Positions 1 through 39,865 of a stretch of DNA of 64,000 nucleotides are shown here, in pieces. The notes below the pieces were generated by a model. It did not search any database. It was not told where the DNA came from and worked only from the letters and a program-made list of their open reading frames with translations. Both the position numbers and the translations under genes were made by a program. The DNA is taken from positions 310,001 to 374,000 of the forward strand of contig JAQGDQ010000126.1 of NCBI GenBank assembly GCA_030141605.1. The letters run 5' to 3'. This stretch comes from Tubiluchus corallicola. Lineage: Eukaryota; Animalia; Priapulida. Every line of letters starts with the position of its first letter. Positions within the stretch are counted from its first letter, which is position 1.

Positions 1-3000
1 AATTGATTGCGATGAAAGATAACCTAATTTACTTACATTTCAGTTGGTTTTTGAGTTTGTGTGTGTGGTTTTTCATGTGTCTGCAATTTTCACGTTAGTT
101 ATTTAATTGCAGTTTTTAGACAGTTAGCGGTAACGTTTTGCAAAATTAACATCAAGGTCTAGCGTGTTGGAAGCTCGCCTAGCTGCGCCTCTACTAGCAC
201 CTGTGCGGCTGTGTCCCCCACACTCGCCTGCGTCGGTGTCGATTATATAAAGCTGTACCTCCTTTGGGGTAATAACAGTTATCGGACAGTTATAGGTAAT
301 ATTTACAACTCATTACGTAGATGTAGAACAAAGGAAGCAAGACGTAAATAAAATGGGTTAAAAATGAGTATCGTAATTAGTAAATAAATGTAGTTTTCTT
401 CCTGCAGCAAATAAAACAAACTGTAGCGTGGATTTTTCAGCAATTACACCCAGCTAGAGTTAAGCTTCTTTTTACGATTCAGCTGTCAGAGTTTTAAGAG
501 GCAATATACATTGAAGTGAAATAACTTACTAGATGCTTAGGGCTTGTGTTACCCATTTAATGTTTTTTAGTTCTGCTTGTTTAGCTTAACTGACGTGAAG
601 GCGAATGGAGTGCTTTGTAGTTATTAATGTTAAAAATAAACTTAAACTTCAGAATTCTTGTTCATATATATACGTATGCACTTTTTGATGACTGAATCAG
701 TTACAATGACTTTCTAAAGCTTTTTTAGTGTACTATACACGCGTTTATCACTCTTGCGAAGAAAATCTGTGCACAAAAATGATTATAAGAGTGATTGTGA
801 CATTCCTAATTTTAGGAGAAATAATTAATCTGTTTTCAGACGCTAATACAGGTAAGAGCTAAAGACGTCACTAATTTTCCACAAATTCCGCGAACATTTG
901 ACCGACAGGAAGCAGTGGAATTGACTCAACATTTTCTCTTGATGGCACGAATTACATGGTTTTGAAAGGTGGCACACCAAATCTGTTATAGCCAGTAATT
1001 GTGCTCCTTTAGTAAAATCATAGCCAGATGCAATTTTAAAGATGACCATAGCTCTTATTCTTGAGCAAAGGCATGCAAATCTTTTAAGTCAATTATGCAA
1101 TGTTGTGCGTAATAATAAGCAGTGAACAGTAATTAGTTTGCGTCATGCTCCATGCATGTGAAGGCTCTCAGTAATAACGAACAAATAAAATCTGTAAATC
1201 TGACACAGTTAAAATGAGGAATTGTACTGCACGAAAGCAGTAATTTAGTTGTGGGAGCAATGATATAACCTGGGTATAAAGAAACAATTATCTAGTAATT
1301 TGAATAAGTGATGACATCTCAAGGTTATGGGATTAAGAAAGGACTATCACATGAACAATTGAAGAAGAAAACGATTATGTCCTAATTAGATTGTTTTGGT
1401 GTGGTTCTCCAACGCAATTTTCCATGGAGTACATGAAAACTCAGCCATTTTTTATTTGTATTAAATCTAGTTTACTTAGCGCTTTCATTTGCATTAGCAT
1501 GGCAGTTTTGGTTTGTTATAGTGCGTAGTTCTCTAGTGTAACACTTTTGGTCCAAGATCTCAAAATTGCTCAAGGTTGGCGTAGGGCCACCCTCAATATT
1601 CTTAACGAGGACCATCAGAAGATCATAAAACCACCGAGAGAAAAACTTACACGGAAAAAGCAAGGTTCACCTCACCGGCTGTCGGACTAGTGCTACTGTT
1701 ACAAAAAACAACTTGGCAGAAATATTTTTTAGGACCTGGAATGCAATGATTATTGGTATTTGGTAACTGACCAATTAACAAAACACTAGGCGTCTCCTCG
1801 TCGGTCACCTTACCAATATCACTTCTCTAGCACAATAAAAGCTTGTAAGCTTCACTGAAATACATCTTGTATGCAATGAGCTTGTGTAACAGGCAACTCA
1901 CTATGAGGTCCTCGATATAAAACTATTACAAAAATGCAAAAAGTCGTCACTATAATATAAAGTATCAAGACTTTTTATTTATTTTTATTGCACGCACAAG
2001 AAGACCAGGAGGGCATTCCTGAAGAAGTGACAATTACATCGATAGATGACGTTACTATACCATTGATTGTAGAACTGAAAAACAACAATGTTTCGAAAGA
2101 ACATCTTCCCTTTCTTCAGAAGTCATTACCAAGAGAATACATTAAACACAATGTAATGCCAGTTATTTTGGAGCAGTATATGGCAGAATATCCGGGAAAG
2201 TTGTCCATAGGTGATACCAGTGGTAAGCTGTAATCAATTTCTTCGGGAGTATCACTATTATATGTGATTTTATGTAAGTGTTATATATCACATCATTGTT
2301 GATTAGCGTGCTGATTCCTCACGGTAATGCATGCTACAGTGCAGAACGTTACAGTTTCGTAATGCTATTGCACGCATTATAGTGCCGAGCTTATTAATGT
2401 CGTGCAACATAAAAAACAAAAAGTTTGTTACCCAATGTTAATTAAATTTAGAGACTATTATTTTCCATGTTTTCTAGTCAAGCGTCTCAAAATTTTTACA
2501 GTTTTAAAAGCTAGCAACTGACGAAAAATAAATACTTTTGGTACTAGAAATGAGTTTCCAGATACAATGTTCCTTGCTGTGAGTTATTTTGCTACTACCA
2601 TACCTGCAATAATTAATTCACCTAGATTTCATCGAAAACATGTACTGATGCCAGACACCCGCGTGCAGCTTGGCTAATATTGCGCTGCAGACACGCTACA
2701 TGAATATCTTAAATTTGCAATCTTTTTGAGATTTAACCAGGTGTGGTTTCTTGTGCAGTATCTCTCAGGTGTGCCATTTGAAGTGACTGGTACATTACCA
2801 AAATCTAAGTGTTAAATAAACCACTCACCGAGGCACCAGTAACCTTGATCTAACCTTAGGTCCATTACAACCTTACAATGAACGCTGCGAAAATTAAGTT
2901 AAGAAGTTGCAATTCTCGAAGCCGTACTACTTTTATACAGTTATTATATCTTATGTAATGAATTGAGAAATCAATCTGTTGGTCTTTTCAAATGATTAAA

Positions 3001-3056
3001 TACATGCAGTTATTTAGCAAAGTGAAGGTTTAGGTTAGATTAGCAACCACGTGCTG

Positions 3057-3066
3057 CATCATCATT

Positions 3067-3164
<98 letters not shown>
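3057..3164. repeat. (CAT)n microsatellite
   Basis: About 36 near-perfect CAT units; explains the poly-His ORF 3051..3302. Confidence 0.97.
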
Positions 3165-3318
3165 TCTGGATTTTCCTTCATTCAAGCAAAGAAACATCTG
3201 TACGTTACACTGTTAAAGGGAATCCATTTGTCACAACGAATGCAGGCTTTTTATAATTTCGGATTGAAATGTACTTTAGTAAACACTGAAGGGAAACGTT
3301 AACACATTTTTCGAGAAT

Positions 3319-3647
3319 ATGCTAATGTGCACCATTTTCAGAAAACACGTTGGCGCAATAGCTGCATTCATTGTTTTGCCACGTTTAGCGTTTCCAGCTA
3401 TCACGTTCGACTTACAATTTCCGGGCAAGTGGGATACGGATTATGCGATGCTTCAGAGCCAAGATGGTTTGCCCGAACTAGCCGAGTTTACAATCTGCTT
3501 TCGTATACGAACTGAAGACCAGCAGACAGAAATGGCTATTCTCACTTACCACACTGACATGGAGTGCGCTGACTGTGAAGAATTGCAGATATATTTAGCA
3601 AACGAAAATTTGTTTCTGATTGTTAAAGGAACTGGCGCAAGGCATTT
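3319..3647 (+). CDS. Exon 1: signal-peptide-like segment and N-half of pentraxin domain
   Basis: MLMCTIFRKHVGAIAAFIVLPRLAFPA then LQFP...DYAML...LAEFTICFRIRT...AILTY...EELQIY, matching the pentraxin pattern LxxFTxCxW/F...xxSY...NExxI; donor tt|gtaagt. Confidence 0.85.
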
Positions 3648-6600
3648 GTAAGTAGGTCTCAAATCGGGCATTTTCAAGTATGCTTCAGTTGTTATTTTGG
3701 CTATATTGTCTATATTAAAGTGAATTTTTTGGCGAATTTTTGTTTTTCTTGTTTACTTGCTTATTTACCTGTATTGTCTGCAAAATGTAGGAAACTTTGC
3801 GGAAGGCTGTCCCGTGCGTCCACTTTTTTATAAATCGCGGCAAATCAAGGCAAGACACAACAGCAAAAATGTGAAAAAGTCAACCTCGTTAAAACACCCC
3901 ATTTATAAGGCCAACTTTTAGCAACTTTTGGCGAAAGTCTATATTTGCACAGACATGTATGTAGTATACCTTGTTATAATACCAAACTCGTTGAATGTAC
4001 AATATTTAATGCTAACTTTTTTGCCGTCCCAAAGGTACAAAGGACATATCCATACAGATAGTCCAGAAGAATAGAATTTTTATGATAATTTGTTAAGTAA
4101 CTAGTAAGACGTACTTGTAGCGTCCAAGAATTTGTGTTTAAACATTTTGCTTATAGGTTATTTGTATGCAAGAGAAGACAACTGTAGTAATGGTCATAAA
4201 TCATGGATAATTTCATTAAAATTATTTAGTGCAAGCAATGAAAAACAGATGATTACAATTTAAACTTCAAGGCAAAATTAGCGTTGTAGATGTGTAAAAT
4301 ATTATTCTGCAATTGATATAAAGTTCTAAATGCTGATTGTACAAAATGGAAATGGAAAATGAGTGTACAATTTCATTTCAGAGATGGCGGCGCAGTAAGT
4401 TTTGGTCCAGAATATCGGAACGGTGAGTGGCATGCAGTATGTGCTACGTGGTGGAATCTAGATGGAGGTTGGTCAGTGTTTGTGGACGGCGTTGAAATTG
4501 GGAACGGCACCAGTCTAAGGCCCGGGAAGTACATCAAAAGTGGAGGTTTTCTGATAATCGGACAGGATGTAGATCCTATCGAAGGAAGCCTCAACTTTGA
4601 AGCATTTCAAAGCTTTACTGGAGTTCTGAGCGATTTGCAGATATTCAGCTATGCGATGATTTTGGAAGAGCTTTTACCAATTCAAACAAAATGCAAACAT
4701 GTACAAGGTGACATAATTTCCTGGCAGCATGTTCAGGGGTCAAGGTGGCTAAAATTGGGTGGCCTGAAGATGGTTAGACCAACTTCATCTTGCAGAAAAA
4801 AGGTGAAAGGTAGGGATATTACACAAGATTTGCAATTACGCTCGAAAAGAATTAGAAATGCAACATATATAATGACACTCTGTTGCGGTAGTAAATACAC
4901 AGTTAAATCTTGTAGTTTATAAAAATAGTAATATATTTTTTTTAATTTTGTGAACTTTTTATCAGTTTCAAAATCTTAGATTGGCATATTAAACGCGTTC
5001 AAATGAGACAATAATCTCTGTAGGATGATACATTTCACCCCATGTGAAGCAGCTGTCACAATAATTGTTGTCAATTAGCAGTTTGGGACTTTTAAATTAG
5101 TAATTTTAAATATTTGACATTCTTGGCCTATTGCAGGAAAAGTATTACGACCTTATTGGTTAGTGGAGCCACCTGGACCATATGCTGTTGGCGTCACTAT
5201 GGTAACCGATGTTTTAAAACACCACCTTAGAAAATGTAGTTTTTTGCTGTCAACACTGTACTGTGAAACAGTCATAAGATAATATTGGCTGTTTTTTCTA
5301 CTTCTTAAATATATTTTTAATTCCAATTATACCAATTATAGAAACAATTATGTATTTGCTATTGTTCAATAAAAGTACTCACGTTACCACGTATGAGTAT
5401 ACCAATTTGATTTGGCATTCCAAATTCGTAATTATTCTAAGTAATTTAAGTAATAAAAGAAACGGTACGCCATCACTTTTCTTATCCAGAACTTTAAAGT
5501 TCAGGTTCATCATCGCCATTCAACGTACGCTTTGACTAATGCTGTTGAAGTAGCTCAATTTTTTGGTTCTAAACATAATATTTTCATTTGACTGCAGCAA
5601 CAACCGTTTCTAATGGTTAATGACGTCAATTTGGTTGGCTTCACTGTTGATTTGATGGATGCTATCAGTATGGGTGGTCAATATTTTACTTACAAATTCG
5701 TTATATTTGACCATCTAGGACGAAATCAAACAGGTGCTTTGTGCAAACTTTCACTCGGAGTGAGTATTGACTTTTAATTAATTTGCGTAGGAGAGGGGTA
5801 ACCGTTGCCAAACTAACAGCAAATGCTGTTTTAGATCGCTGTCGTAATGATTTTAACAATATTGCAAGTAATCAAAATTTAAGCAATGAAATGAAAATTC
5901 AGAACACTCGGAAACTAAATAATGAGATAAAATAAAGTTTAAATCTCAGTTAAAACTTATTAGACGCCGGCCGAGATTATTTCTTTGCGGGGCGGGTGGC
6001 AAATTGAAAAGCTATGGTGAAGCAGGATAATCTTTGTCAAATCTTTGTGGTTTTAAATGAAATCACAGTCATCGGTTGTGCCTGCATAATTGACTATAAA
6101 AAGTAACATTAGCTTACCCACTTTACCGTACACATTGGGAGAATCGTTAAATTTTTACTTTAAAACATGAAATTCATTTTGTAATTATCAGTTGAAGAAA
6201 ATATTTGTAAAGATACATCTGTACAGTCTTCACGAAATGTGAAATGAAACATAAAATTGGTAAATCTAGTGCGCCAATTGACCATAAGCAATTTGATTTA
6301 TCCTTTAAATCCAGTGAGCAAATTGCTTCTGACATTCAATACATTGAGGTGTTACTAATCTAGTTTGTTTGCTACATAAAGGTTATAGACATACTAGCTG
6401 CTCCCACTACAATGACAAAGGAACGTCGAGAAGTGGTGACTTTCACACGCAAGTATATGACGTTCGGACTAACAATGATTATAAAAATACCAGGAGAACA
6501 GCACAGTATCTCCACAGTCGGTCACCTTGCAGCTGCTTTTCCTTGGCTCACTTGGCTTCTTACTATTGGCTCATTTATTCTCATGGCAGTTACAATGTGC

Positions 6601-9600
6601 ATCATTAACAGGTTTGTCTGTTCGTGCCATTTTAAATTTATGTGAGTAGCAATAAGTAATAAGTTGGTAGCCTGCAGCTCATAGTCTTATTGGCTATGTA
6701 GTACTGAGCCAAGGCGATTAGCAACTCGCAGGAGTATAATTACATTGTTCTATTCATCATTGTCGGAAGCGCCAGCGATATACGTAGCAAAATAATCTTT
6801 GTTGTTAACCAAACTTAGAAAAATAGTTAACAAAATAAATTAACAAAACGTACTTAGAAAGATAATTAACAAAATAAATTAAAAAGAGCGAAGCCTCTAG
6901 AAGACGTAATTAAACTACCTCTATAAAACCGTTTTTCTGTTTTTCTAGTTAAAATGATAGTTAAATCCTTTATTAAACATTTTAGTTTGATCAATGTAAA
7001 TTGTAAAGTTGCAAAAAATTCACGCGTTTTCCTTATTGGCAACAAGTAGATGTATAATTTTCAGTATTTTCAGTAAGCCCTTCAACATGCAGTTTATCTG
7101 TTGCTGCGGCAGGGAACGTGGAAATAATTAAAAGAAACGTGGCACATTCCGTTGGTAAATTACGACGTTAATTTTTCTATTATTTCACACAGAATGGATC
7201 CCTATGAAAGACGTCTACAATTCAAACGGGAGGGAAAGGGTACAGAGATGGACTTGGTAGAGTTTGGCGCCGAGGGATCAATGTATTGGCTATCAAGCAT
7301 GATTCTTCAACAAGGTATGAAACATTACATCAAAATCACCTTTTAGGAAAAGCTTAATTTGGTAACTAAAAAAACCGCATTTAGATTTTCACCGCAAAAA
7401 TGCAAATTAATTAAAATGTCCGTACAACTTAATTATAGCTGACAAATGTTTGAGAACATTTCGTGAACATTCAACTACTGATTATTATTTTTGTTTTCGT
7501 TATTATCTTTTACTTCCATTATTATAATTTGTCATAACAACCAATATTTGAAAAGAGCCATGAAATTAAAAATTTATGAATTCTTAGATAATAGATATAA
7601 TGCTTTCAAATAAAAAAATAATCAGAGTGAAGTACATTTCAAAGTTTCAAACATTATTTTTCTAGCGTCAATGTTCAATAATATTAGGAGCTTACAGCCA
7701 GAGAGACACTCACTGCAATGTATGTTCACTTAAAGTAAAAAAATCTACGTAAGAGTTTGATATTCGTACTTTGTTACAGAAACAACGGTGCTCAGATCAC
7801 AGTGGATTTTTTTGTCAATTTCTCTCTATTTAATTCAGTCTACACAATTTCTTAAAGTTAACATTAAAGTTAACACTTAGACCGAGTCGTCGGGATCAAA
7901 ATCGAGCTTAGAACCAGACGTACGTTTTTTCTAGCAACATTGTTTACTCACCTATTTTAAAATGCACACGATTTTTTTATCTCTTGGCAGGTTATAACGC
8001 TGAACCAGTATCAAGAGCTGGTCGTGTGTTATTGGTCACTTGGTGGATATTCTCACTCTTCATGCTGCTCTCGTATGCTGTCAATCTCATATCTAACAAT
8101 CTCAACGTCCATGGTAACGCGGATGGCATACTCTCTAGGATACATTCTATTGAGGATCTTCTTAAACAAGACGACCTAGAATTTGGCTGTGTGGAAGGTT
8201 ACGCTACTGAAGAGTTTTTTAGAGCCTCTGAAAATATTTACGTTAAGAAGGCTTACGAAAAAATGCAGAACTGGCATTCGATGGTAAGAGACTAATACAG
8301 GTGTCTGTGCGCGACGGGCGCTAAAATATGAGTGCAACAATTTCTTAGATGTAGTTAATAGTTTTTATTGTTCAAAATGGTATTTTAGTCATTGTCGCCA
8401 CAAACCATAATCATCATTACATCTTGACAGATTTGACTGACTGACATTATATCATCTACGACTGGTCTTCATTTTCTCTGAAGAAAACAAAACAATTTGT
8501 GCTAAACAAAGCATCAAAACTTAATGATAATGGAATACGTTGAAATTAAATCTACATCTTTGACCATCTTTGATTGCAAATGAGAATTCGTCTGACAGAA
8601 ATTTTAACAGAAAACGACTTGACATACTGGACAAATGACTCCTTTACTACCTTGCCTCGAAATGAGACCAATCTATTCCAGCAAAACCTGTCTACGAACA
8701 GGTCTAATTTTAGAAAGCAAACACTGGGAAGCACCACATGTTTATATCCAAAAAAGTGTCTCAAAAGTCAGTACTGATTTGCAGTTTTCTCTTCCAAATT
8801 TTCTCAAATTTCGGCAAACTCTAATATGAATGAAATGGGGTCTTTGACGATTCTTTTTGCTTAAATTTTGACTGACTTTCCGTTACTATGGAAACGGTCC
8901 TAACGTTAGAGATATGATGCAAGAACTCAAACCGGCAAGAGGCTTTTCGATCACTGGAGTGCAGCGGTTTGTGGACACTACGCTCTCGCTATTTATAACG
9001 CAGTTTTTAACAAAGTGGAACCCGTCCTCACTACTCGCAGCTGTGAGTGACTTTCTCAAAGCAAGATAACCCGACTTGACACTGGATGGGTCATTGAGGT
9101 TTTTTGCCTGGAAATTTGTGACTTGACAGATTTGACAGCCAGCAGGACACCCTGTTTACTTGAACAAATCTCCTCTTACTTAAGTCTTCAAAAATTGACG
9201 TCAGAAAAATTCTCGTCAGCACCACAAGTAAAGCATTATTCAGCAACTACATTTATGCAGAACTAATTCTTGATTCTATTTTATAAGCATTTTTTACAAA
9301 TTCATTGTACAGACAAAATCAATTGATGAAGGATATAACAGAGTAAAACAAGGCGGATATGTTTTCTTCTTGGAGTCCGTCTACGCAGAGTACTTGGCAA
9401 ATAAAGACTGTTCGATTATAATTCTCGGAGACCCTATCAACGAGGAAAGCTTTGGGCTTGCAACACCTGAGCTCAGCCTAGAAAATACTCTTCTCAGTGT
9501 TAGACTGGAACATTTGCTAATGGATGGTACCATACAAAATCTGTAAGTAAGATACCGGCAGTAGGGAGAGCCTACATTTAATAGTATACACAGTTGCAAA

Positions 9601-12600
9601 AATTGCAGATCTTTCATCTAAACCTTTTACAAATTCTCATCTATAGGCAATTTAAGAGTTTCAAGCCAAATACAGTCTTAACTATGTTCAGCGACAATTG
9701 TCAAGAATCCCGCACCTCATGTTAATTTTTATTGCTCAGTGGTTTTGAGGTCTTGTGAGTCTGGAGCTCAAAAAATGGGTGACACTTGTGACGGACCACT
9801 TATATGTGCTGTTTATTTTTGTCATGATCGTGAACCTATTTATCTAGTTTGGCTCGAAAGTGCACCTCACAAAAGAAATTGGTTCTTATTAACCATCAAA
9901 TTAAAGATGTGTTGAGCCGAAACACGGATTTTCCTGGAACACTTATATGTGTTGATTATTTTTGTCATGATCGTGAACCTATTTATTTAGTTTGGCTCGA
10001 AAGTGCACCTCACAAAAGAAATTGGTTCTTATTAACCATCAAATTAAAGATGTGTCGAGCCGAAACACGGATTTTCCTAAAGCACGTGCTGTGAGTTTTG
10101 TTTTATTTCCCTAACGTGTACCGTCGTTACTATTGCAATATAATATTTAGGAAAACTAGTGGACGTTTTTGCTGGGCCAAAAACTGTGGTAAGATTCTGC
10201 TTCTGTGATTGGAGATGCTTTATGTGACAGCCTTTCAAAAGAATTTTTTTTGTAGTTGACATTTTACATGTAAGTACTGTTGTGCTTGACATTAAAAGCT
10301 TCAGTGAAATCAGAACTTGTCACTTTTTCACTAGTGGTCCATAACTCAAGGCTGTGATGGGCATAATTGCGAATCCATTGAATTCGCCATGCTTGATTAC
10401 TTAGGAACTCGATTTCGTTTTAGTAAAATCATTCGATACTATACTTTCTTGACAAGTGACTAATCACCAGCCTAATTCTGAGCAGTTCCTGTGTTGCTTT
10501 TCTTAGCAACGAAACACACAACGTAGCCACACAAGTATTTCCTTTCCTAGTTATCAGTGAGTGTCAGAAAATTGCAAAGTAATTAATTTCACTAGCATTT
10601 TAACGTTAACACATGTAACTAACATGTAATTAACTAATGTAACTAACGGAAAAAGTTCTGCCATGCCCTCTATGACCTTTTACCTGAGGGTAACGGGTTG
10701 CACAAAAACATAAATTCCCCTACCTATGCCGTGTGCCTTGTGAGTTTTGTAAACCTAGCCAGTACGTGTGCGAGTTATTAAACAGAAAGGCATAAATAAA
10801 TAAAGAAATCATAAAAACCGGGAGTAAATCAAGGAGATTCTGCTGCAATCTTACGGCAATCTCAGTTAATCCAAATAAGCTAGGTATTAAATTCAAATGC
10901 TTTATTTCATCACGCGTATGAAAACTGAGCTCAGGTTATTTTAAAACAAAGTGTACCGGTACCGGTTTACCACGTCAGAGCTCCAGTCTTGGTGTTCACA
11001 GCTTCTCCGTTCCATAATCATCGTTTTATCATTCCATACTGCAAAACAGAGCTACATCATTCCATTCTCATGTCCTATGGTTCCATGCCATACCATCCGT
11101 CATACGATCCTGTATTAAGTTCCGACAACTGCCAGCTCACTTCACGGATCGCCACCTCTTCGCCTCACCGCTCGTATTGTAGCTTCCTCGTTACACGTCA
11201 GTCTAGCTTGCCTGACTCCGCTCACCAACTTGCTAGGAGTTTCACCAATGCAAGTTTAGATTAGGTTCCGTTTTCCCTAGACCAATTAACAAGCCATTTT
11301 GTCTCTAGCTATATCGTTTGAAGAAGTTTCACAATAATATTTATCAAAGCGTCCCATTAACATCGTCAAATAAACGTTCAAACTGAGTAGTATAGACAGA
11401 CTTTAGACGTGCCTGCCATACCTTCAATATGCTCAGTAACCAAACCTCAACTGTGTAGAAAGATCGAGAAATTCACTTCTTCTCGACGACTTACATGAAT
11501 CACCCGTTGTATTTAGGCATTTTTAAAATAAACAATGAGGAAAGTATTCATTAAACATAACTATGTTACTTGTACTAATTTCACAACTGTACATATGCAA
11601 AAGTAAACTGCTTCATCTCGTACAGAAGTGTTTTAAGTTCAAATAATCTCAACACTATAGCGAGCAACATATAAGAAATTAATCTAATTAATAAAGATAT
11701 AAATTGTCGGACGTCCGATAGGGTACGAAAATAATGCACTTTTACAAACAACTTTCAGGGTCTTTTGAAGGTCAATCGATATTATTTTAAGAAAAACGGG
11801 GATAAGGGTGATTTAAATCATTCCACTTGGTACTGAAATTTTAAAGAAAGGCACGTTAAGTTACCAAAAATATGTCAGAGCTTATTTTCATATCAAGGTC
11901 AAGGTTTTTGCGATGTATCATTAAAAGAAAATCAATTTATTTCAGAAAAAAAGTATAGTTTGGAGTATAAGTTGGCAATTTGCACGTGATTCACTCAAAA
12001 TCTTAAGCCTAAGTTTCATGCTGCTGTGTTGATTTCGTGATGCCTTTTTAAGCAAAGCGTCTTACTGGGTTGCCCTCATGTTACCTTGGTGCTCCTGTAT
12101 TATACAGTTGTCCAGCTAGTAATCTACCCTGGGATATAGATTGTACATGAATGGAAATATTTTGCTAAGCAGAGGTTTAAATTGTAAGTGTGAGGATTTT
12201 TCCTGAATTTCAAACACCAGGTGGCAGCAGTTAAAGTTAAAAGGGGGGACTGTAGATACTGACGTGGCAAGGCTTAATGTATGAATCGAGGAGCTAATTT
12301 TTGTTATTGTGTTTGCCAAATATTTGTATTTTTTATTGTCTTAGTGCTACATGCATTTCATCTTTGAGCCAACTATATGCTGCTATATGATGTAAGTAAT
12401 TAAGAGAGTTACATCCCCCTTTCTTGAATTTCTAAATCTGTATTCACACATCAGAAAACGTACTATAAGATTTTAGGCTACAATTTTACTTTTTAATTAG
12501 CTATACTTTGGATTTGAGCGTCTTGCGCTAAGCCGTATACTTATTTTACTCAAACATTTGGCGTGCTTTTCTTAATTTGCAGATTAAACGATAATACTAC

Positions 12601-13299
12601 AAAAAAGTAGTTACCGTAAGTGTCCTGCAAATACGTAAACGGAGCAAAGATATACTCTTTATCTTTTCATGTACACGTTGTATATGATTATACGATTATA
12701 CCATAATTGTTGGAGACACGTACGCTGGCGAATATCTGTTTTAGTTGTCTTGTATAACGCAATCACTCAAATCAGACAGGCAAAAAGTTGTTTTGTTTAT
12801 CTGCAGTTTTTAGAATACGTGTTTTGCCTAAAGTATTTTACAGTATTGTTGTTGTTGTTGTCATCATCATCATCATCATCCTCTTCCTCCTCCTCTTACT
12901 CATCATAGTCATCATCATTATCAGCATCATCACCATCCATTAGTCGTCATTATCGTCGTCGTCACAGTCGCCATCATTTTAAAAAAATTAAAAAAATTGC
13001 AGGCAATATGATTTCCTGCTCTTCTCATATAACTTTAATACATTCACAGGCAATTTAATAAGCTCGTTTAGTTTTGTTTACTTAATTATTGTACTACTGA
13101 TGACTATGATTTTTGCAGGAAAGATAAATGGTTTGGTAGGCGAGATTGTCCTGGTGACGACGCATGCGCCGGTAGAGACAGAAATGTGATGGATACTAAG
13201 AAAACCATGTTGGCGTTCATAATTCTGCTTGTTGGATGGGGACTAAGCATCGTAGTTTTAATAATAGAAATCAAAGTCTATAAAAAATTACATTCGTAA
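3319..13299 (+). CDS. Pentraxin domain-ionotropic glutamate receptor fusion protein; 9 coding exons, 679 aa: join(3319..3647,4382..4809,5137..5201,5598..5759,6382..6611,7193..7314,7991..8283,9313..9542,13119..13299)
   Basis: All 8 introns are GT-AG with compatible phases (2,1,0,0,2,1,0,2); the exons total 2040 nt with no internal stop. Exons 1-2 carry pentraxin motifs and exons 3-9 carry iGluR motifs in canonical order. The start is uncertain because a possible acceptor (ttttcag) ends at 3341. Confidence 0.85.
4382..4809 (+). CDS. Exon 2: C-half of pentraxin domain
   Basis: NGEWHAVCATWWNLDGGWSVFVDG (pentraxin HxCxTW signature), IKSGGFLIIGQDVD, FQSFTGVLSDLQIFSYAM, C..GDIISW; acceptor catttcag|, donor aaag|gtaggg. 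Confidence 0.9.
5137..5201 (+). CDS. Exon 3: linker and first strand of the iGluR S1 ligand-binding segment
   Basis: ttgcag|..GKVLRPYWLVEPPGPYAVGVTM|gtaacc; open in the phase set by exon 2; aligns with the iGluR 'TLIVTT' strand. Confidence 0.7.
5598..5759 (+). CDS. Exon 4: iGluR S1
   Basis: QQPFLMVNDVNLVGFTVDLMDAISMGGQYFTYKFVIF...GALCKLSLG, compare AMPA/kainate EEPYVM...EGYCVDL...FKYKL...GMVGELVYG; ctgcag| and |gtgagt. Confidence 0.85.
6382..6611 (+). CDS. Exon 5: end of S1 and M1 helix
   Basis: VIDILAAPTTMTKERREVVTFTRKYMTFGLTMIIKIP, compare [36 protein letters not shown]; followed by hydrophobic M1 (WLTWLLTIGSFILMAVTMCII). Confidence 0.93.
7193..7314 (+). CDS. Exon 6: M1-M2 loop and pore loop (Q at the Q/R site)
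   Basis: RMDPYE...EFGAEGSMYWLSSMILQQG, compare RFSPYEW...EFGIFNSLWFSLGAFMQQG; cacacag| and caag|gtatga. Confidence 0.93.
7991..8283 (+). CDS. Exon 7: M3 helix and start of S2
   Basis: PVSRAGRVLLVTWWIFSLFMLLSYAVNLISN...IHSIEDLLKQDDLEFGCVEGYATEEFFRAS, compare [31 protein letters not shown]...[30 protein letters not shown]. Confidence 0.95.
9313..9542 (+). CDS. Exon 8: S2 ligand-binding segment
   Basis: Absent from the ORF track. Hand translation: TKSIDEGYNRVKQGGYVFFLESVYAEYLANKDCSIIILGDPINEESFGLATPELSLENTLLSVRLEHLLMDGTIQNL, compare EGVARVRK..YAYLLESTMNEY...C...VG...GYGIATP; tacag| and ct|gtaagt. Confidence 0.93.
9798..10078. repeat. Tandem duplication, 2 x ~143 bp, intronic
   Basis: acttatatgtg...gtcatgatcgtgaacc...gagccgaaacacggattttcct occurs twice at an offset of 143. 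Confidence 0.92.
13119..13299 (+). CDS. Exon 9: end of S2, M4 helix, short C-tail, stop
   Basis: ttttgcag|g then KDKWFGRRDCPGDDACAGRDRNVMDTKKTMLAFIILLVGWGLSIVVLIIEIKVYKKLHS*, compare LKNKWWYDKGEC...[20 protein letters not shown]. Confidence 0.92.
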
Positions 13300-13842
13300 C
13301 GTTGGTATGCAAAATTGAAATTTTAGCAATTCCAAAAAATAATACAAAGGGTGATTAAATCGATCCATTTGTTGTTTATGTTGAAGATGAATTTTGCTAT
13401 TTCGCCAGAGTAAAAACTGATTGAATTTCAAGTTTTGAAAGCTGTCAAATTAAAAATGGTCAGTTCTCTCTGCACCGCTGGTATAAAAGACGTTTTTGTC
13501 GCTTTATTTTTTGGCAGCTAATATCGTTACCAAAAAAGCTATAACGGCCATCTAAAGTATTACAGTTTTAGTGAAGACTTGTATCAATCTGTTTGAATGT
13601 TTCTGCATCATTTGCAAAACACTAAGCCTTATAACATGCCTTATAACACAGACCGAAACATTTAAATTAATTGACACTTCAATGACGCTTTCAGTGGTCG
13701 TTGTGGCAATTTTCTTGCTGAAATTTATAATTTCCAGATGATTGATCTCCAACTGATATTTATGCTGTTAACACGACTGTGTTTGTGGTAGGGCATTATA
13801 AGCTCATACAGCTAGTAAAATTAAGTGATGCGTCGTTTAATA

Positions 13843-19408: not shown

Positions 19409-21016
19409 ATGGCAAATTGTTCAGTGGAAGTCAACATAACGTCGCTGTGTTACACTCATTCAGTTACCACAACGGTTGAATTTGGTTACGACGATGTTCT
19501 GATAATTGCAGCTTGTTGCCTCCTGATCATTTGTGCATTAGTGGGAAACTTGCTGGTCATTGTCGCTGTCGCCACTAATCGTCGCCTACGGTCAGTGACA
19601 AATTGCTTCGTGGTTTCTCTGGCGGCTGCTGATGCTTTGGTGGCAGTTCTCGTGATGCCCATGGCTACTGCAGAAGAAGTTACCAATACGTGGGTGTTTG
19701 GTCGGTTTATGTGTGACGTCTACACATCAATGGATGTAATGATGTGCACTGCATCAATACTTAATCTGTGTTGCATTAGCGTTGATAGATATCTGGCAAT
19801 AACAAGACCATTAATGTATGTAACGAAGCGTACTAAGAAGCTTGCGTTGATTATGGTAACAGTGGCTTGGCTACTGTCTGCTGTTATAATACTTCCTGCT
19901 GTTGTGGGATGGAAGGACAAGGAGTATGGTTTAGACGATACAGTGTGTTATATACCACGTGCACCTGGTTTCGTGGTTTACTCTGCTTGTGGCTCATTTT
20001 TCATTCCAATGGTTATCATGCTTTATATGTATTACAGAATATTTCGTGTTGCAAATAATCGCGAGAAGTACCTCACATCATACACCCGCCACTTGTCTGG
20101 AAAATATGGCTCTAATTCTGGCAATGAAGATGCCAGTTTAAGTGACATCAGTGCTAGTAACAAAAATCTTAACGAAGATAAGGGCAGTGGCTCACGGGGT
20201 ATAACAATGGAGAAATCAAAATTCAGTTTTTACCGTTTCCAACCAAAGCGACTGTGTGAAGTGTACCTATTGCGGGCTGTTAGTGCAAAATGTTCCACCA
20301 AATGTGAATCCATTCCGCTTGGCAAAGATTCTGTAGAATTAAACATTTGTGCCCAATCTCCAAAATCTTGCAGGACTGGAGAAAGTTCTTTGACGGTCAG
20401 AAACATGCATGTACAACATTCCACGTCTTGCCCCGGTTCATTTAATAGGCCAATCAGTCAACGAAGTGGCAATTTAATTTCACTTGAACGTGATGTTCCG
20501 TGGAAAGAATCACCTCAAAATACCAACCCGAGTCAATCTGTGGAAGACGACCGTGACACTGAAAAAACAAAAGCCAAAGAACAAGCAATTTTTAAAAAGG
20601 AGCACAAGGCAGCAAAAACGCTTGCTATAGTAGTTGGAGCGTTCACAGTGTGTTGGATGCCTTTCTTTGCACTGTACGTAGTTAAACCTTTCTGTCAGTG
20701 CGACATTCCACACGCTTGGCTTCGATTCACTGTTTGGTTGGGTTATTTAAACTCAGCCGTCAATCCACTAATTTACGCATTTCATAGTGCAGAGTTTCGA
20801 CACACGTTCTGGTCTCTCACGTGTGCCCTAATTTGCAAACTTTGCAGTTCGAATGCCCCAGAATCGAGCCAACCGACTGTGGTAGGAACAATAGAAAGGA
20901 AAATGGTTTTGCAAACTGCAGAATCTTCTAAATTACACAAGAAAGGCGAAGCACAATATGGCAGTAGGCAACTTAGTAGTGGCGGAAATGCATTGGTAAT
21001 ACCTAATCTTGTCTAA
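19409..21016 (+). CDS. Biogenic amine GPCR, most like alpha-adrenergic-type octopamine receptor; single coding exon, 535 aa
   Basis: Seven TM segments: GNLLV, LAAAD, CDVYTSMDVMMCTASILNLCCISVDRY (Asp3.32), TM5 VYSACGSFFIP (Ser5.42/5.46), long ICL3, KAAKTL...CWMPFF, WLGYLNSAVNPLIY. The first in-frame ATG is 19409; the track's start at 19397 is GTG. Ligand subtype is inferred. Confidence 0.93.
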   Translation: MANCSVEVNITSLCYTHSVTTTVEFGYDDVLIIAACCLLIICALVGNLLVIVAVATNRRLRSVTNCFVVSLAAADALVAVLVMPMATAEEVTNTWVFGRFMCDVYTSMDVMMCTASILNLCCISVDRYLAITRPLMYVTKRTKKLALIMVTVAWLLSAVIILPAVVGWKDKEYGLDDTVCYIPRAPGFVVYSACGSFFIPMVIMLYMYYRIFRVANNREKYLTSYTRHLSGKYGSNSGNEDASLSDISASNKNLNEDKGSGSRGITMEKSKFSFYRFQPKRLCEVYLLRAVSAKCSTKCESIPLGKDSVELNICAQSPKSCRTGESSLTVRNMHVQHSTSCPGSFNRPISQRSGNLISLERDVPWKESPQNTNPSQSVEDDRDTEKTKAKEQAIFKKEHKAAKTLAIVVGAFTVCWMPFFALYVVKPFCQCDIPHAWLRFTVWLGYLNSAVNPLIYAFHSAEFRHTFWSLTCALICKLCSSNAPESSQPTVVGTIERKMVLQTAESSKLHKKGEAQYGSRQLSSGGNALVIPNLV

Positions 21017-33163: not shown

Positions 33164-34873
33164 ATGTCTAATTGTCAACGATGGTTAATATTTTCTACAA
33201 TTTACACAGTCATTTTTGCAAAAGGTTTTGAAACAAAATGTGAAAAAAACGAGGAGACGGCATTGATCATGATACCAATTCTTGCAAGAAACAAAGCGCA
33301 TACATTGCCGCATTATTTGGGCTATATCGATGAGTTGAATTATCCAAAGAGCAAGATTGCATTGTGGATAAGAACTGATCATAATATAGACAACACTTCG
33401 GCAATATTACTCGAGTGGATCAGTAAAGTTGAAGGGAAATACCACTCAATTGATTTCAATTCCGTTGAACACCCGAAATCATTTCCTGGCGAAGATTCTC
33501 CACTTTCTTGGTCCCAGTTTAGGTTCACACATATTATCAATCTCCGAGAGGGAGCCTTAACGGCAGCGCGAAAAATAAGAGCAGACTATGTATTTTTCAT
33601 TGATTGTGATAACTTCATTGAAAATAGCAAAACACTGAAGGTACTTATTAATGCCAATAAAACAGTTATAGCTCCTATGTTAGAATCACGATCTACTTAT
33701 TCGAACTTTTGGGGTGCACAAACTGCAAATGGGTATTACAAACGAAATGCAGAATATATAAAGATATATAAGAAGTTCAAACGTGGCTGTTTCCCAATTG
33801 CAGTTGTCCATTCCTCTTTTCTGATTGACCTCAAAAATTCTACATCAATGGCCTTAACATTTGATAATAAAAAACTTAAAAGCAATTATGATAAAGAACG
33901 TGATGACGTTCTCATTTTTGCTCACTCTGCACAGGCTGCTGGAATTCAGCAATTCGTCTGTAATTATGAGGATTTTGGTCTCCTTACCATTCCGCAAACA
34001 GACATGCAGGCTGATATCCAGGAAGTCACCAACTTAAAAATTGGAGCAATGGAAACATTTTCTACAGATGAGGTATGTTGGGAAATGAACAAAAGACGGT
34101 ACAATAAACAATTTTTGACATCACAATACATAACAGCATTAAGGCAGAAGAAAGACTCGTTGGGTTTTGACAGGGTGTTTGTAATAAACCTTCAACGACG
34201 ACCAGAAAGAAAGCAACGTATGACGGCGATGTTTGAGGCACTTGATATAGAAGTTGAATTCATTGATGCCTGGGATGGGCTTAAGTTGAACAAAAGTTGG
34301 CTAGCAGAAAATGGAATCAGAGAACTAGAAGGATATAGAGATCCGTTTCTTCACCGTTCAATAAAGTTAGGTGAAGTTGCAACAACAATGTCACATCACA
34401 AAACGTGGAAAGAGATTGTAGATAAAGGTTACAGAAGTGCACTCATATTTGAGGATGATGCTATGCTTGTTACCAACTACCGACAGAAGATACGTGAAGT
34501 CATGGACGAAGCAGAGAAACTTCATTGGGAGTTCATCAACTTCGGTGGCAAGTTTCTTGACAATTTCTGGAAATCTGCCAAGGACTCAAAGTTTTTTGTG
34601 ATCCCCGGTTACACCTACTTGCTGCATTCTTATGCCCTCACATTTTCTGGTGCCCAAAAATTGGTGCAAGGCAAGCCACTGGAAAAAATTGTGGCCGTTG
34701 ATGAGTATGTACCAATCATGTACAACAAACATCCTAATGCTGAATGGAGTTCAAAATTCACTCCAAAGTCTTTGCGTGCATTTGCTACAAAGGATTGGCT
34801 AGCCTATCCAAGCTTGGAGCTACATCATTATGTCAGTGACGGTTATAATTCTCCATTATTGAATGAAACGTGA
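33164..34873 (+). CDS. COLGALT-like: Procollagen galactosyltransferase-like protein (COLGALT/GLT25D, GT25 family); intronless CDS, 569 aa
   Basis: Signal peptide, ILARNKAHTLPHYLG, LWIRTDHNIDNT, FIDCDNF (DxD), APMLES..YSNFWG, VHSSFLIDL, DDVLIFA; second domain FDRVFVINLQRRPER, LIFEDD, VDEYVPIMY..HP. Strong acceptor ttttcttttgcag| at 33110 in the 5'UTR. Confidence 0.93.
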   Translation: MSNCQRWLIFSTIYTVIFAKGFETKCEKNEETALIMIPILARNKAHTLPHYLGYIDELNYPKSKIALWIRTDHNIDNTSAILLEWISKVEGKYHSIDFNSVEHPKSFPGEDSPLSWSQFRFTHIINLREGALTAARKIRADYVFFIDCDNFIENSKTLKVLINANKTVIAPMLESRSTYSNFWGAQTANGYYKRNAEYIKIYKKFKRGCFPIAVVHSSFLIDLKNSTSMALTFDNKKLKSNYDKERDDVLIFAHSAQAAGIQQFVCNYEDFGLLTIPQTDMQADIQEVTNLKIGAMETFSTDEVCWEMNKRRYNKQFLTSQYITALRQKKDSLGFDRVFVINLQRRPERKQRMTAMFEALDIEVEFIDAWDGLKLNKSWLAENGIRELEGYRDPFLHRSIKLGEVATTMSHHKTWKEIVDKGYRSALIFEDDAMLVTNYRQKIREVMDEAEKLHWEFINFGGKFLDNFWKSAKDSKFFVIPGYTYLLHSYALTFSGAQKLVQGKPLEKIVAVDEYVPIMYNKHPNAEWSSKFTPKSLRAFATKDWLAYPSLELHHYVSDGYNSPLLNET

Positions 34874-35699: not shown

Positions 35700-37328
35700 A
35701 ATAAGTCATAAGTCATTTATTTCACCATACACATTTACAATGATTACATATACAATATCTAGTGAAAGGGCCTACAATGGATATAATACAAATAAGAAAT
35801 ACTGCGCAGAAAAGCCTCAAACACTGTTCCCTTATGCACGAAGGTAAATGTGTTGTGGGCAATCAAGAAGCAGGGCTTGTTAGATTGTCCCACACAGTGA
35901 TAGAAAAAAAATATGGAGATAATCTGAAAATTTAAAGTGTATCGTGATTAAAAAAAACGTTAGTGCTTAAAATGGAATGACGTAATGAATGAAGCTCATA
36001 TATGGGATGATATGAAAGATAGAAAGACTATTATTTTTTAATAGTATGTAAATTTAAAATAACTTGATTTAGCTAACACCACTGTTTGGCAACTACTGTG
36101 AGGATGGATACTGATAGAAATTTTTATTACTCACTGATACTTACTTAAAATTTGATTTTTTAGCATTTTTTAAATCTAGTAATAGATCTGCTATCTTTTG
36201 CGGATTGACAAATCTCATTCCAGACTTTTGGTCCTTGATATATTATAAAATGTTTAGCTATGTTGGTTCTACAGAAAGGCACAATGTATTGATTAAATCT
36301 TGTATTATGTCTCTTAGATGTCAATTTGACAGGAATTGCAAAAAACTTAGGAAATAGTCTATTATTGCATTTATACATGAATACTGCAATATTAAATTTA
36401 ATTAAAACATCTAAATGCATAATTCTACATTCACGGTAATGAAGTAAAGGTACTTCACTACGTTTCTGTAGGCCATACATTAACCTTAAAAATTTTCAGG
36501 CATTTCAGTTTAGATGGATATGTGGGGCCCCAAATAATGCTGCAGTAATTGAGATAAGGTAAAACCAGACTATTATACAGGATTAGTAAGTGTTCTTTCG
36601 AAAGACTGTGTTTCATGTGAGTAATGATGCCTATATTTTTAGCAATTTTAAGTCGAATATAAGAGATATGTGATTGCCAGTCTAAGTGTTCATGTATGAC
36701 AATGCCTAAGAATTTAATCTGCTTTACTTGTTGAATATAACTATTTTCAATTTGTAATGTCAAATTTGGCATTCTCTTGTTTCTTGATCTAAAAACTACA
36801 AATTTAGTTTTGGAAGCATTTAGTGATAATTTATTACTCCTAAACCAGTTAGATATTTGCTGCAATTCATTGTTTATTTCAGCTTCATTAACAGTATTGT
36901 AATATTTAAATATTAAACTGGTGTCATCAGCAAACTGCAGGATTTTCCATTATTAGTACAATGTTTTATATGATTAATGTACACAAGAAACAAGAGTGGG
37001 CCAAGTATCGACCCTTGTGGAACACCACAAGATATTAATTTGCAACACCTCTTATTCCATAGTGGTATAATTTGTTAATTAAAATTTTATGATCAACAGT
37101 GTCAAAAGCTTTTGACAGATCACAAAAAATACTCACAGATAACTTATTATCTTCAATATCTCTGATTATGTTGGTCAGCATATCAATTAAAGCCATTTCT
37201 GTAGTACTGCCTTTACGAAATCCATACTGTGTGTCGTTTAATATGCTTTGTTTATGTAAATAATCTGTAAGTTGCAAAGACACAATAATTCTCAATGCTA
37301 CATTAGCTTGCATCTCAGTTAGTCGCAT
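35700..37328 (-). mobile_element. CR1/L2-group LINE ORF2 remnant (RT and C-terminus, frameshifted, endonuclease absent) with probable 3'UTR
   Basis: [82 protein letters not shown]. Confidence 0.93.
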
Positions 37329-37828
37329 TAGAGCAGTCTGTTTCCAAAGGTGTAGCGCTTCAGATATTCCAAACTAGAAATCTCAGTTATGTCAGTCCCT
37401 CCGGTCAGTTTTATGAAAACTCGGCCATCACGGGTCCAGGTGGTGCATTTTTTCATTTTTGCCATCTCCCTTGTATGTTTATAGATGCGAGCACTTAAAC
37501 TCGACAAGTGTTCGTTAATGTAAATTCTGTTGTTGTTCTTGCTTGCACCAAAGTCACCGAAATTGTGCGCACTGCACGTCTTTAATTTACTTTTATTACG
37601 AAGCAGCTCACGTTTCTTCCTTTTACTATTAAATCTAACAATGATAGGAGAACACAGTTCCGGTCTGCTACTAGGTACTCGGTGAGCATTATTAATTTCG
37701 TACAGCTCCACTTTAACGCCAATATGGTTAGCTACTTCTGAAACTATATTGACTGCATCCTCAGCGTTTGTTTCTGGTATACCAATAATTTCAAGGCAGC
37801 CATTTCTCTGGTACCTTTCTAATTTGTT
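37328..37828 (-). mobile_element. LINE ORF1 C-terminal part (RRM/CTD, L1-ORF1-like)
   Basis: LERYQR..CLEIIGIPE, AHRV, PIIVRF, RIYINEHLS, WTRDGRVFIK. Confidence 0.9.
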
Positions 37829-38193
37829 ACCAACCAAAAAGTAAAAATCTACATGCACATATACGCTGATGAACGCTAATCATTGTTATATCCTTGCAAC
37901 GTCATTTTATTTATAAAAAAAAACAGTTTTTGAAATCGGCACGAAATGCAGAATCCTTACTTTTTAGTCTTTGCTGTTGTTGTTGGTGATGGTTTTATTG
38001 TCATATTTTTCTTTGAAGCTATCACAAGTCATAGCGTTTATCGCACAATTCATAGTATTTATCGTAGAAGGCTGAAATTTTACATAGTCTTTTGTACAGA
38101 CATCTCAGTAGAGCCCTCGATTGTGTCCGTTAAGTGGATCAGCTAGATGAAATATGCAGCTAAAAAAGTCACAAAACGTTAAAGGAGGCACAA

Positions 38194-38775
38194 TTAAAAA
38201 GAAATAACAATGATAGGAGAACACAGTTCCGGTCTGCTACTAGGTACTCGGTGAGCATTATTAATTTCGTACAGCTCCACTTTAACACCAATATGATTAG
38301 CTACTTCTGAAACTATATTGACTGCATCCTCAGCGTTTGTTTATGGTATACCAATAATTTCAGGGCAGTCATTTCTCTGGTACCTTTCTAATTTGTTCAT
38401 TTTTTCTTCCAATGTTGTAGTCAACTGCTTCAGCTTATTGAATCTGTCTTCCAAATCATCAAGAGCTGGTAATTTTGCATTTTCTGTTTCAACTCGACTT
38501 AGTCTCTTCTCATGATCGTTCAGCAGTTTTGTATTGGTATTAACAGAAGTCTGAACTGTCTGAACCACTGAGTTGATCTTAAGTTGTTCATCCTTTAACT
38601 CTCTTATATCGTTCATTATCATCTCAAGTGCAGTAAGTTGACTCAAAATTTTGTCCAATTTTTGGTCCTGAGTTGTTGATACTTCTGCGGTTTCAATATC
38701 TGAACTATTATTCATGCCTTCTGATTGTTTATTAGCTGACCGTAATGAGCTTCGTTTATCGTTTTGCTTTGGCAT
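38194..38775 (-). pseudogene. LINE ORF1 5' part (coiled coil), copy with premature stop
   Basis: MPKQNDKRSS...; the GAA codon of the other copies is TAA at 38341-38343. Confidence 0.85.
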
Positions 38776-39222: not shown

Positions 39223-39278
<56 letters not shown>

Positions 39279-39635: not shown

Positions 39636-39667
<32 letters not shown>

Positions 39668-39688
39668 CTGCTACTACTACTACTACTG

Positions 39689-39723
<35 letters not shown>

Positions 39724-39751
39724 ACTGCTACTGCTACTGCTACTGCTACTG

Positions 39752-39831
<80 letters not shown>

Positions 39832-39832
39832 G

Positions 39833-39865
<33 letters not shown>

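What the first reader, a model, noticed from the sequence alone, without database searches (positions are those of the whole stretch)
3319..13299. Pentraxin-iGluR chimera: glutamate-receptor channel whose amino-terminal domain is replaced by a pentraxin
Seen: nine exons splice in frame into a 679-aa protein with a signal-like leader, a full pentraxin domain (~220 aa), a short linker (about 15-20 aa), then S1-M1-pore-M3-S2-M4. No stop separates the domains, the iGluR part has no signal peptide of its own, and the 327-bp intron at the junction cannot hold a ~380-aa domain. Established: AMPA, kainate, NMDA and delta receptors have a LIVBP-like ATD, and vertebrate neuronal pentraxins (NPTX1/2, NPTXR) cluster AMPA receptors by binding that ATD. 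Inference: this is a Rosetta-stone-like fusion in which the channel carries its own lectin, clustering or adhesion module, possibly a glycan/pattern-sensing or self-clustering channel. I do not know of a described iGluR with this architecture but could not search.
Basis: partly seen in the sequence, partly recalled or inferred. Interest (0 to 1): 0.92.

Follow-up and report, generated by a model that had tools for sequence, protein, structure and literature searches.

The report
Glutamate-receptor channel capped by a pentraxin
An animal gene places a pentraxin (lectin-type) domain where brain-type glutamate-receptor channels carry their large outer domain; the two halves likely form one protein, which is predicted to have a plugged glutamate pocket and would most likely act as an anchoring subunit rather than a glutamate sensor.

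Summary
Nine GT..AG exons give 679 codons without a stop: a complete neuronal-pentraxin-type domain, a linker of about 19 residues, then a non-NMDA glutamate-receptor core with no LIVBP domain. Spliced contigs from a probable RNA run cover both halves, and both halves are under purifying selection (dN/dS about 0.1). No contig crosses the pentraxin-channel junction, so the fusion is inferred (about 0.8) from strong in-phase splice sites and the lack of any other signal peptide for the channel. Two corrections. The gene probably starts further upstream, with a signal-peptide exon (779-851) and an unknown 74-codon exon (2001-2222). The channel half is atypical: Tyr at position 653 (reported to plug the pocket in amphioxus receptors), only 4 of 9 gate-motif residues, and a tail of about 8 residues. 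It is most likely a passive, anchoring subunit rather than a glutamate-gated homomer. The 'Rosetta stone' argument is weak, because vertebrate pentraxins bind the very domain that is missing here. I found no second example and no paper, but the searches were shallow.

The parts
779..851 (+).
   Evidence: Donor ranks 1 of 807 GT sites in 20-13400; hydrophobic core; in frame with 2001, 3398 and 5137. Coding score is negative (-3.5 bits). Not tested against RNA.
2001..2222 (+). Probable 74-codon phase 1-1 exon of unknown family, three predicted helices
   Evidence: Coding score +14.5 bits, 0 of 1803 overlapping intron stretches as high; donor rank 6 of 807, acceptor weak, rank 405 of 759; no Pfam match; AF2 single-sequence pLDDT 67.5; no fold match.
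3319..3397 (+).
   Evidence: Mildly coding (+4.0 bits, 1.8% of 2355 null stretches); ends in a phase-1 acceptor at 3398; the spliced X2 contig begins at 3396.
3398..3647 (+). Pentraxin domain, first part (phase-1 entry)
   Evidence: Pfam Pentaxin E 1.4e-05; aligns from the domain's first strand; joined to 4382 in an X2 contig, GT..AG.
4382..4809 (+). Pentraxin domain, second part, through the terminal cysteine, then a phase-1 donor
   Evidence: NPTX2 E 7e-20; Pfam E 3.4e-13; donor rank 3 of 807; read-through beyond it scores as non-coding (-5.0 bits).
5137..5201 (+). Linker and first strand of S1; the fusion exon
   Evidence: Acceptor rank 4 of 759, best of 16 AG sites after the 4809 donor, phase 1; coding +5.1 bits. 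S1 assignment rests on position and a recalled iGluR pattern.
5598..5759 (+). S1, middle part (divergent)
   Evidence: Joined to exon 5 in an X2 contig; coding +8.8 bits; no iGluR match alone.
6382..6611 (+). End of S1 (Pro478, Thr480, Arg485 equivalents) and M1
   Evidence: GluA2 alignment E 4e-05; Pfam Lig_chan-Glu_bd E 1.1e-05; covered by X2.
7193..7314 (+). M1-M2 loop and pore helix ending in QQG
   Evidence: Coding +14.9 bits; position between M1 and M3; no database match alone; pore assignment from a recalled motif.
7991..8283 (+). M3 (SYAVNLISN), lengthened M3-S2 linker, first part of S2 with Tyr653 and Thr655
   Evidence: GluA1 alignment E 4e-10; Pfam Lig_chan E 9.6e-08.
9313..9542 (+). 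S2, second part (Leu704, Glu705, first S2 cysteine)
   Evidence: Kainate/delta LBD alignments E 5e-06; covered by X2 with mostly synonymous differences.
13119..13299 (+). End of S2, M4, tail of about 8 residues, stop
   Evidence: Hydrophobic helix; weak GluA2 alignment E 1.1; acceptor rank 5 of 759.

Best explanation
The locus carries a pentraxin module directly upstream of an ATD-less non-NMDA glutamate-receptor core, likely spliced into one protein that is predicted not to respond to glutamate on its own and would most likely serve as an anchoring subunit. Step 1 (shown): the exons, domains and open frame. Step 2 (shown for each half): splicing and purifying selection. Step 3 (inferred, about 0.8): one mRNA joins the halves; the pentraxin came in by exon shuffling as a phase 1-1 module and took the place of the LIVBP domain. 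Step 4 (predicted from sequence and one published parallel): Tyr653 fills the agonist pocket, and the altered M3 gate and longer M3-S2 linker weaken coupling, so a homomer would be silent to amino acids. Step 5 (inferred): the intact LBD fold, M1-M4 and Q-site pore let it co-assemble with ordinary iGluR subunits, while the pentraxin binds, probably with Ca2+, to glycans, matrix or neighbouring receptors' N-terminal domains. It would thus supply the positioning that the lost ATD and the almost absent cytoplasmic tail can no longer give.
For: Open frame, 8 of 8 GT..AG introns. Donor 4809 ranks 3 of 807 and acceptor 5137 ranks 4 of 759, both phase 1. 5137 is the best of 16 AG sites after the donor. 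Read-through past 4809 scores non-coding, whereas several stand-alone pentraxins end right at the homologous cysteine. The junction intron holds no signal-peptide exon: the two ATG-donor candidates give short polar peptides, and the exon-3 frame has a stop and no Met upstream. X2 contigs join 3647-4382 and exons 4-5 and cover exon 8, with no indels; dN/dS 0.06-0.09 for the pentraxin and 0.16 for the channel, similar synonymous divergence. Tyr653 from the GluA1 alignment; amphioxus GluE7 with Tyr653 gave no response to six amino acids (PMC6307864, passages). Passive but obligatory subunits have evolved in invertebrate AMPA receptors (PMC13520880, passages). Acidic and Gln residues at the pentraxin calcium site are kept (their role is recalled from CRP).
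Against: No contig bridges 4809/5137 or 5201/5598. The signal exon at 779-851 can also splice in frame straight to 5137, skipping the pentraxin. Arg485, Thr480, Thr655 and Glu705 are all kept, which is more than a dead pocket needs. The Tyr653 argument rests on one tested receptor from another subfamily and on a pairwise alignment. The ATD drives subunit assembly (PMC2924276, passages), so heteromer formation without it is uncertain. No partner subunit could be looked for, as no genome is held. X2 is about 7% divergent and may hold a paralogue.
Confidence: 0.42

Rival explanations
1. Sensory or immune orphan channel: the fused protein is a channel tuned to something other than an amino acid, either a small molecule in the remodelled pocket (as with insect IR tuning subunits) or a glycan or microbial pattern bound by the pentraxin and coupled to the gate through the 19-residue linker.
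For: ATD-less, divergent, short-tailed layout resembles tuning IRs (PMC2924276, passages). Tyr653 could act as a built-in ligand that holds the clamshell shut. Gate position 8 (the Lurcher site, PMC7335009, passages) is Ser, which may lower the opening barrier. Pentraxins are Ca2+-dependent pattern binders (PMC8866268).
Against: No known case of an N-terminal module opening an iGluR gate was found in my searches; the M3-S2 linker is 5 residues longer, which would loosen coupling; expression site unknown; phylum not determined, so IR membership is untested.
Confidence: 0.2
2. Two products rather than one fusion: a secreted pentraxin (start 3319, ending at the stop at 4922 or through a nearby acceptor) and an ATD-less iGluR whose signal exon (779-851, with or without 2001-2222) splices over the pentraxin to 5137; the fused form would be minor or absent.
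For: All these forms are open frames. The 3319 leader is mildly coding and signal-like. An ATTAAA lies at 4988. Weaker acceptors at 4966 and 5024 would end the pentraxin. Pentraxin-chromodomain chimeras are a known case of rare or mispredicted fusion of neighbouring genes (PMC2542381, passages; such entries appear). No bridging contig.
Against: Donor 4809 and acceptor 5137 are among the strongest in the locus and in phase; the read-through tail is non-coding-like; ATTAAA occurs about twice per kb here anyway; a nested gene on the same strand would have to ignore a strong donor; the X2 pentraxin contig starts at the 3398 acceptor, not at 3319.
Confidence: 0.18
3. One reading: an amino-acid-gated synaptic channel that clusters itself through its own pentraxin.
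For: Pro478, Thr480, Arg485, Thr655, Leu704 and Glu705 equivalents are kept, the pattern PMC6307864 links to glutamate binding except at 653; Gln at the Q/R site.
Against: Tyr653; only 4 of 9 gate-motif residues; vertebrate pentraxins cluster receptors through the N-terminal domain and their own coiled coil, neither of which is evident here.
Confidence: 0.15
4. Decaying pseudogene or assembly chimera.
For: Strong divergence; no close relative found; DNA contigs of run X1 do not span the junction intron.
Against: No stop or frameshift over 679-751 codons; dN/dS 0.13 overall, Fisher p 1e-08; an assembly join would not be expected to give matching splice phase and domain-exact boundaries.
Confidence: 0.04

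Closest known systems
Non-NMDA (AKDF: AMPA, kainate, delta, phi) ionotropic glutamate receptors
   Same: S1-M1-pore-M3-S2-M4 order; best PDB matches are GluA, GluK and GluD for every exon that matched; backbone-binding Arg, Thr and Glu kept; S2 cysteine pair; no epsilon-type insertion apparent in the M1-M2 loop (by eye, against a recalled GluA2 loop length).
   Different: No LIVBP ATD; a pentraxin instead; Tyr653; gate motif 4 of 9; 5 extra residues in the M3-S2 linker; Asn rather than an acidic residue at the +4 pore site (predicts little polyamine block, PMC12226733 passages); tail of about 8 residues.
Amphioxus Tyr653 subunits (GluE5-8, GluF1-2; PMC6307864)
   Same: Tyr at 653; expressed; phi and lambda members also have weak SYTANLAAF conservation.
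   Different: No pentraxin is mentioned in that paper's main text (0 occurrences); GluE7 is modelled with a normal ATD-LBD-TMD fold; phi subunits lack Gln586, which is present here.
Protostome ionotropic receptors (IRs), tuning subunits
   Same: Divergent iGluR core without an ATD; thought to depend on a co-receptor (PMC2924276, passages).
   Different: IR N-termini are described as lacking homology to any domain; here it is a full pentraxin. Phylogenetic placement was not tested.
Vertebrate neuronal pentraxins NPTX1, NPTX2, NPTXR
   Same: Closest solved pentraxin domains; calcium-site residues and C-terminal cysteines largely kept.
   Different: They are separate secreted or anchored proteins with an N-terminal coiled coil and bind the AMPA-receptor N-terminal domain. 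Here the domain sits on the channel chain and that target domain is absent. Identity to all hits is only about 30-43%, so orthology is not shown.
Pentraxin as a mobile ectodomain module (adhesion GPCRs, SVEP1-like, invertebrate mosaic proteins)
   Same: Pentraxin placed on a membrane protein or among other modules; in 13 scanned hits it pairs with sushi, REJ, WAP, F5/8, EGF, cadherin, fibrinogen or C-lectin domains; one hit with seven predicted helices.
   Different: None of these carries an ion-channel domain.

Membership tests
Ionotropic glutamate receptor superfamily (channel core) | Split LBD (S1, S2) around M1-pore-M3, followed by M4 | tested here: met
   Pfam PF10613 and PF00060 hits, PDB alignments, three strong hydrophobic helices in order.
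Classical AMPA/kainate/delta/NMDA iGluRs | LIVBP-like ATD (PF01094) before S1 | tested here: not met
   Exons before S1 match Pentaxin or nothing; no further candidate exon above the score cut-offs in 852-2000, 2223-3397, 4810-5136 or 5202-5597. Exons upstream of the window cannot be excluded, but the signal-like exon at 779 argues against them.
Classical AMPA/kainate/delta/NMDA iGluRs | Conserved SYTANLAAF gate motif | tested here: not met
   SYAVNLISN, 4 of 9 identical.
Glutamate-binding iGluRs | Amino-acid backbone contacts at 478, 480, 485, 705 | tested here: met
   Pro, Thr, Arg and Glu at the aligned places.
Glutamate-binding iGluRs | Small residue (Gly, Ser or Thr) at 653 with Thr655 | tested here: not met
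   Tyr at 653, Thr at 655 (rule from PMC6307864).
AKDF subfamily | Phylogenetic placement | tested here: inconclusive
   Best PDB matches are GluA, GluK and GluD, but no invertebrate iGluR sequences came back to build a tree.
Protostome IRs | Descent from IR25a-like ancestor; co-receptor dependence; sensory expression | not testable with these tools
   No genome held, no reference sequences, phylum not determined.
Pentraxin domain (PF00354) | Full-length domain with the conserved cysteine pair and signature | tested here: met
   Pfam profile 4-65 and 82-183 of 194; aligns end to end with pentraxins including the terminal Cys; signature reads HAVCATW.
Ca2+-dependent lectin pentraxins | Calcium-ligand residues | tested here: inconclusive
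   GQDVD for NPTX2's GQEQD and Glu/Gln of the following loop kept; Asn of the usual NEL motif is Glu. Binding not tested; ligand roles recalled from CRP.
Neuronal pentraxins (NPTX) | N-terminal coiled coil, stand-alone protein, binds AMPA-receptor NTD | tested here: not met
   Upstream exon is a short three-helix model with no match; the domain continues into a strong donor. NTD binding is not testable here.

The most novel reading that the evidence does not exclude
A lectin-gated ion channel: Tyr653 acts as a built-in agonist that primes the clamshell, and Ca2+-dependent binding of a glycan or microbial pattern to the fused pentraxin pulls the channel open, making a glutamate-receptor pore into a pattern-recognition or adhesion sensor.
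Probability: 0.1. Interest if true: 0.93.

Novelty: new variant of a known kind. Interest (0 to 1): 0.66.

Why it matters
Animal iGluRs are usually described with two N-terminal states: a LIVBP domain, or a short unrecognisable stretch (IRs). A conserved, expressed subunit with a whole lectin-type domain in that place would show that the slot can be refilled by exon shuffling. It offers a natural test of what the ATD is needed for (assembly, anchoring, gating) and of whether a module on top of the LBD can position or even open the pore. The Tyr653 pocket adds a second, independent case to the small set of amino-acid-insensitive iGluRs whose purpose is unknown. It stays a single-locus finding until the junction is seen in RNA and relatives are found.

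Tried and rejected
No genome was held, so paralogues and partner subunits could not be searched. No listed run is on record as RNA; X2 is a guessed RNA run under the same species label. The similar depths of the three X2 contigs (39.8, 45.3, 43) were not used as evidence: contig depth is a poor measure and one contig has an unexplained back-joint. Word-index searches with exon 2 (143 candidates, 250-2000 aa) and exon 7 (111 candidates, 171-2000 aa) gave no hit, not even ordinary iGluRs, so they are insensitive. A pentraxin profile gave 15 hits among 7992 scored proteins of 600-2000 aa, 0 of 15 with a Lig_chan domain. The representative search gave 1427 hits, of which only the best 150 were seen; 0 of 150 matched the channel half. 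A metagenome scan with exon 7 found no relative among 127 pattern matches. Five exact look-ups of window proteins were not in the collection. The ESM Atlas did not complete, so a search for iGluR clusters without an ATD was not done. Exon 2001-2222: no Pfam hit, best Foldseek E 3.6, best VIA Z 4.5, so no fold is assigned. No second pentraxin or iGluR copy lies in the window. Earlier scan notes held nothing on this architecture. No complex prediction was sent, since each domain is split over exons. The phylum was not determined: the best whole-domain pentraxin hit is a Priapulus protein at only about 30% identity, which says nothing about the source.
Full report
Observation. The window is animal DNA of about 35% GC; no genome is held for it. 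Exons 1-2 are a pentraxin: Pfam E 1.4e-05 and 3.4e-13, closest solved domain NPTX2 at E 7e-20, aligned from the first strand to the terminal cysteine. Exons 5, 7 and 8 match AMPA, kainate and delta receptors; exon 9 matches the GluA2 M4 region only at E 1.1; exons 4 and 6 match no iGluR alone, so their roles rest on position and recalled motifs. About 19 residues separate the last pentraxin cysteine from the start of S1. All these exons score as coding in the expected frame under a model trained on two other genes of the window.

The 5' end is probably longer. A signal-peptide-like exon at 779-851 ends in the strongest donor of the locus (1 of 807), and a 74-codon exon at 2001-2222 is strongly coding (0 of 1803 overlapping intron stretches score as high) although its acceptor is weak. 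Both are phase 1 and splice in frame to an acceptor at 3398, right at the start of the pentraxin fold, giving 751 residues. The spliced pentraxin contig of run X2 begins at 3396, a modest after-the-fact hint that this acceptor is used. The splice weights are approximate and from recall. The extra exon has no Pfam match, a three-helix single-sequence model of pLDDT 67.5 and no fold match.

Is it expressed and maintained? Two runs were listed. X1 lies on introns at 99% identity and may be the source DNA; none of its listed contigs spans the junction intron. X2, a guessed RNA run under the same species label, gave three contigs at about 93% identity: one skips 3648-4381 exactly (GT..AG), one joins exon 4 to exon 5, one covers exon 8. 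There are no indels. Of the 34 listed differences, 22 fall at third codon positions; 8 of 11 changed codons in the pentraxin and 13 of 20 in the channel are synonymous. This gives dN/dS of 0.06-0.09 and 0.16, with similar synonymous divergence in the two halves. X2 may be a cryptic relative or a paralogue; either way both halves are constrained. One contig has an unexplained back-joint, so I place no weight on the similar depths.

Is it one protein? Not shown: no contig covers 4439-5631. The inference rests on anatomy. The donor at 4809 falls five residues after the domain's last cysteine, where several free pentraxins simply stop, and ranks 3 of 807; the acceptor at 5137 ranks 4 of 759, is the best of 16 AG sites after that donor, and is in phase. 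Reading through to the stop at 4922 scores as non-coding. The junction intron offers the channel no signal peptide. The pentraxin is bounded by phase-1 introns, the usual mark of a shuffled extracellular module (established knowledge). The same symmetry allows the rival: exon 779-851 can splice in frame directly to 5137, and pentraxin-chromodomain chimeras show that neighbours can be fused rarely or wrongly (PMC2542381, passages). I put the fused form as a main product at about 0.8.

How it likely works. The pocket keeps Pro478, Thr480, Arg485, Thr655, Leu704 and Glu705 (GluA2 numbering) but has Tyr at 653. In amphioxus, five subunits have Tyr653, a model shows it filling the pocket, and GluE7 answered none of six amino acids while such genes remain expressed (PMC6307864, passages). 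The gate motif reads SYAVNLISN, 4 of 9, with Ser at the Lurcher position (PMC7335009, passages), and the M3-S2 linker is five residues longer. The pore keeps Gln at the Q/R site but has Asn at +4, which would lessen polyamine block (PMC12226733, passages). The tail is about 8 residues. So the chain has lost both usual anchors, ATD and tail, and gained a domain whose calcium-site residues are largely kept (roles recalled from CRP). Invertebrate AMPA receptors have repeatedly produced subunits that are passive in gating but needed for assembly (PMC13520880, abstract and passages). The most likely reading is therefore a passive subunit that tethers heteromeric channels through its pentraxin (0.42). 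Rivals are an orphan sensory or pattern-gated channel (0.20), two separate products (0.18), an ordinary amino-acid-gated channel (0.15) and decay or artefact (0.04). Against the preferred reading: the kept Arg, Thr and Glu, the single tested Tyr653 precedent, and the ATD's role in assembly (PMC2924276, passages).

The Rosetta-stone idea is weak. Vertebrate neuronal pentraxins bind the AMPA-receptor N-terminal domain and self-associate through a coiled coil (PMC8866268, passages); this protein has neither. Pentraxin domains combine freely with other modules in invertebrates (13 hits scanned), and identity to all hits is about 30-43% or less. A link survives only in trans, if the tethered domain binds the N-terminal domains of neighbouring receptors; that is untested.

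Novelty. Full-text searches found no paper on this architecture: searches gave 0 papers; some searches gave listings with no title or abstract opening on it. 'Pentraxin' occurs 0 times in the main text of four iGluR surveys; their supplements were not read and could hold such sequences unremarked. Subscription journals are mostly outside the library. Sequence searches found no second case: 0 of the 150 best of 1427 pentraxin hits match the channel half, 0 of 15 long pentraxin proteins carry Lig_chan, and two exon searches were empty and insensitive. An unchecked earlier scan note describes fibronectin-III modules on a GluR0-type core in another genome, a possible parallel that I did not test.

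Verdict. The feature is real, constrained and apparently undescribed: an iGluR core with a pentraxin where the ATD should be. It is a member of the iGluR superfamily by its core, fails the ATD, gate-motif and position-653 tests for the classical classes, and is best called a new variant. Interest 0.66, held back by the unseen junction, the single locus and the untested function.

Noticed in passing
window 5632-6587 (run X2, contig 2): The spliced contig joins 6587 back to 5632, mid-exon to mid-exon, a 334-nt loop that is not a multiple of three. Library artefact or circular RNA; unexplained.
   Followed up: partly
window 2001-2222: Strongly coding 74-codon exon with no family or fold match; acidic start, three predicted helices, one N-glycosylation sequon.
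   Followed up: yes
window 19409-21016 (+): Single-exon rhodopsin-family GPCR, Pfam 7tm_1 E 2e-76; looks like a biogenic-amine receptor (label from recall).
   Followed up: partly
window 33164-34873 (+): Single-exon glycosyltransferase family 25 gene, Pfam E 3e-23; looks like a procollagen galactosyltransferase (label from recall), which in vertebrates has many introns.
   Followed up: partly
window 58558-59049 (-): First exon of another rhodopsin-family GPCR, Pfam E 3e-16; peptide-receptor-like.
   Followed up: partly
window 36160-45400: A LINE-like element on the minus strand (ORF1-like frame at 38341-38787 and reverse-transcriptase-like pieces at 36160-37373) whose 5' part recurs about every 2.7 kb (40962, 43681), each unit with a long trinucleotide repeat. 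Element labels are from recall.
   Followed up: no
window 9793-10078: Two 143-bp tandem copies, 96% alike, in the long last intron of the gene.
   Followed up: no
window 3057-3164: (CAT)36 microsatellite about 230 bp upstream of the pentraxin acceptor.
   Followed up: no
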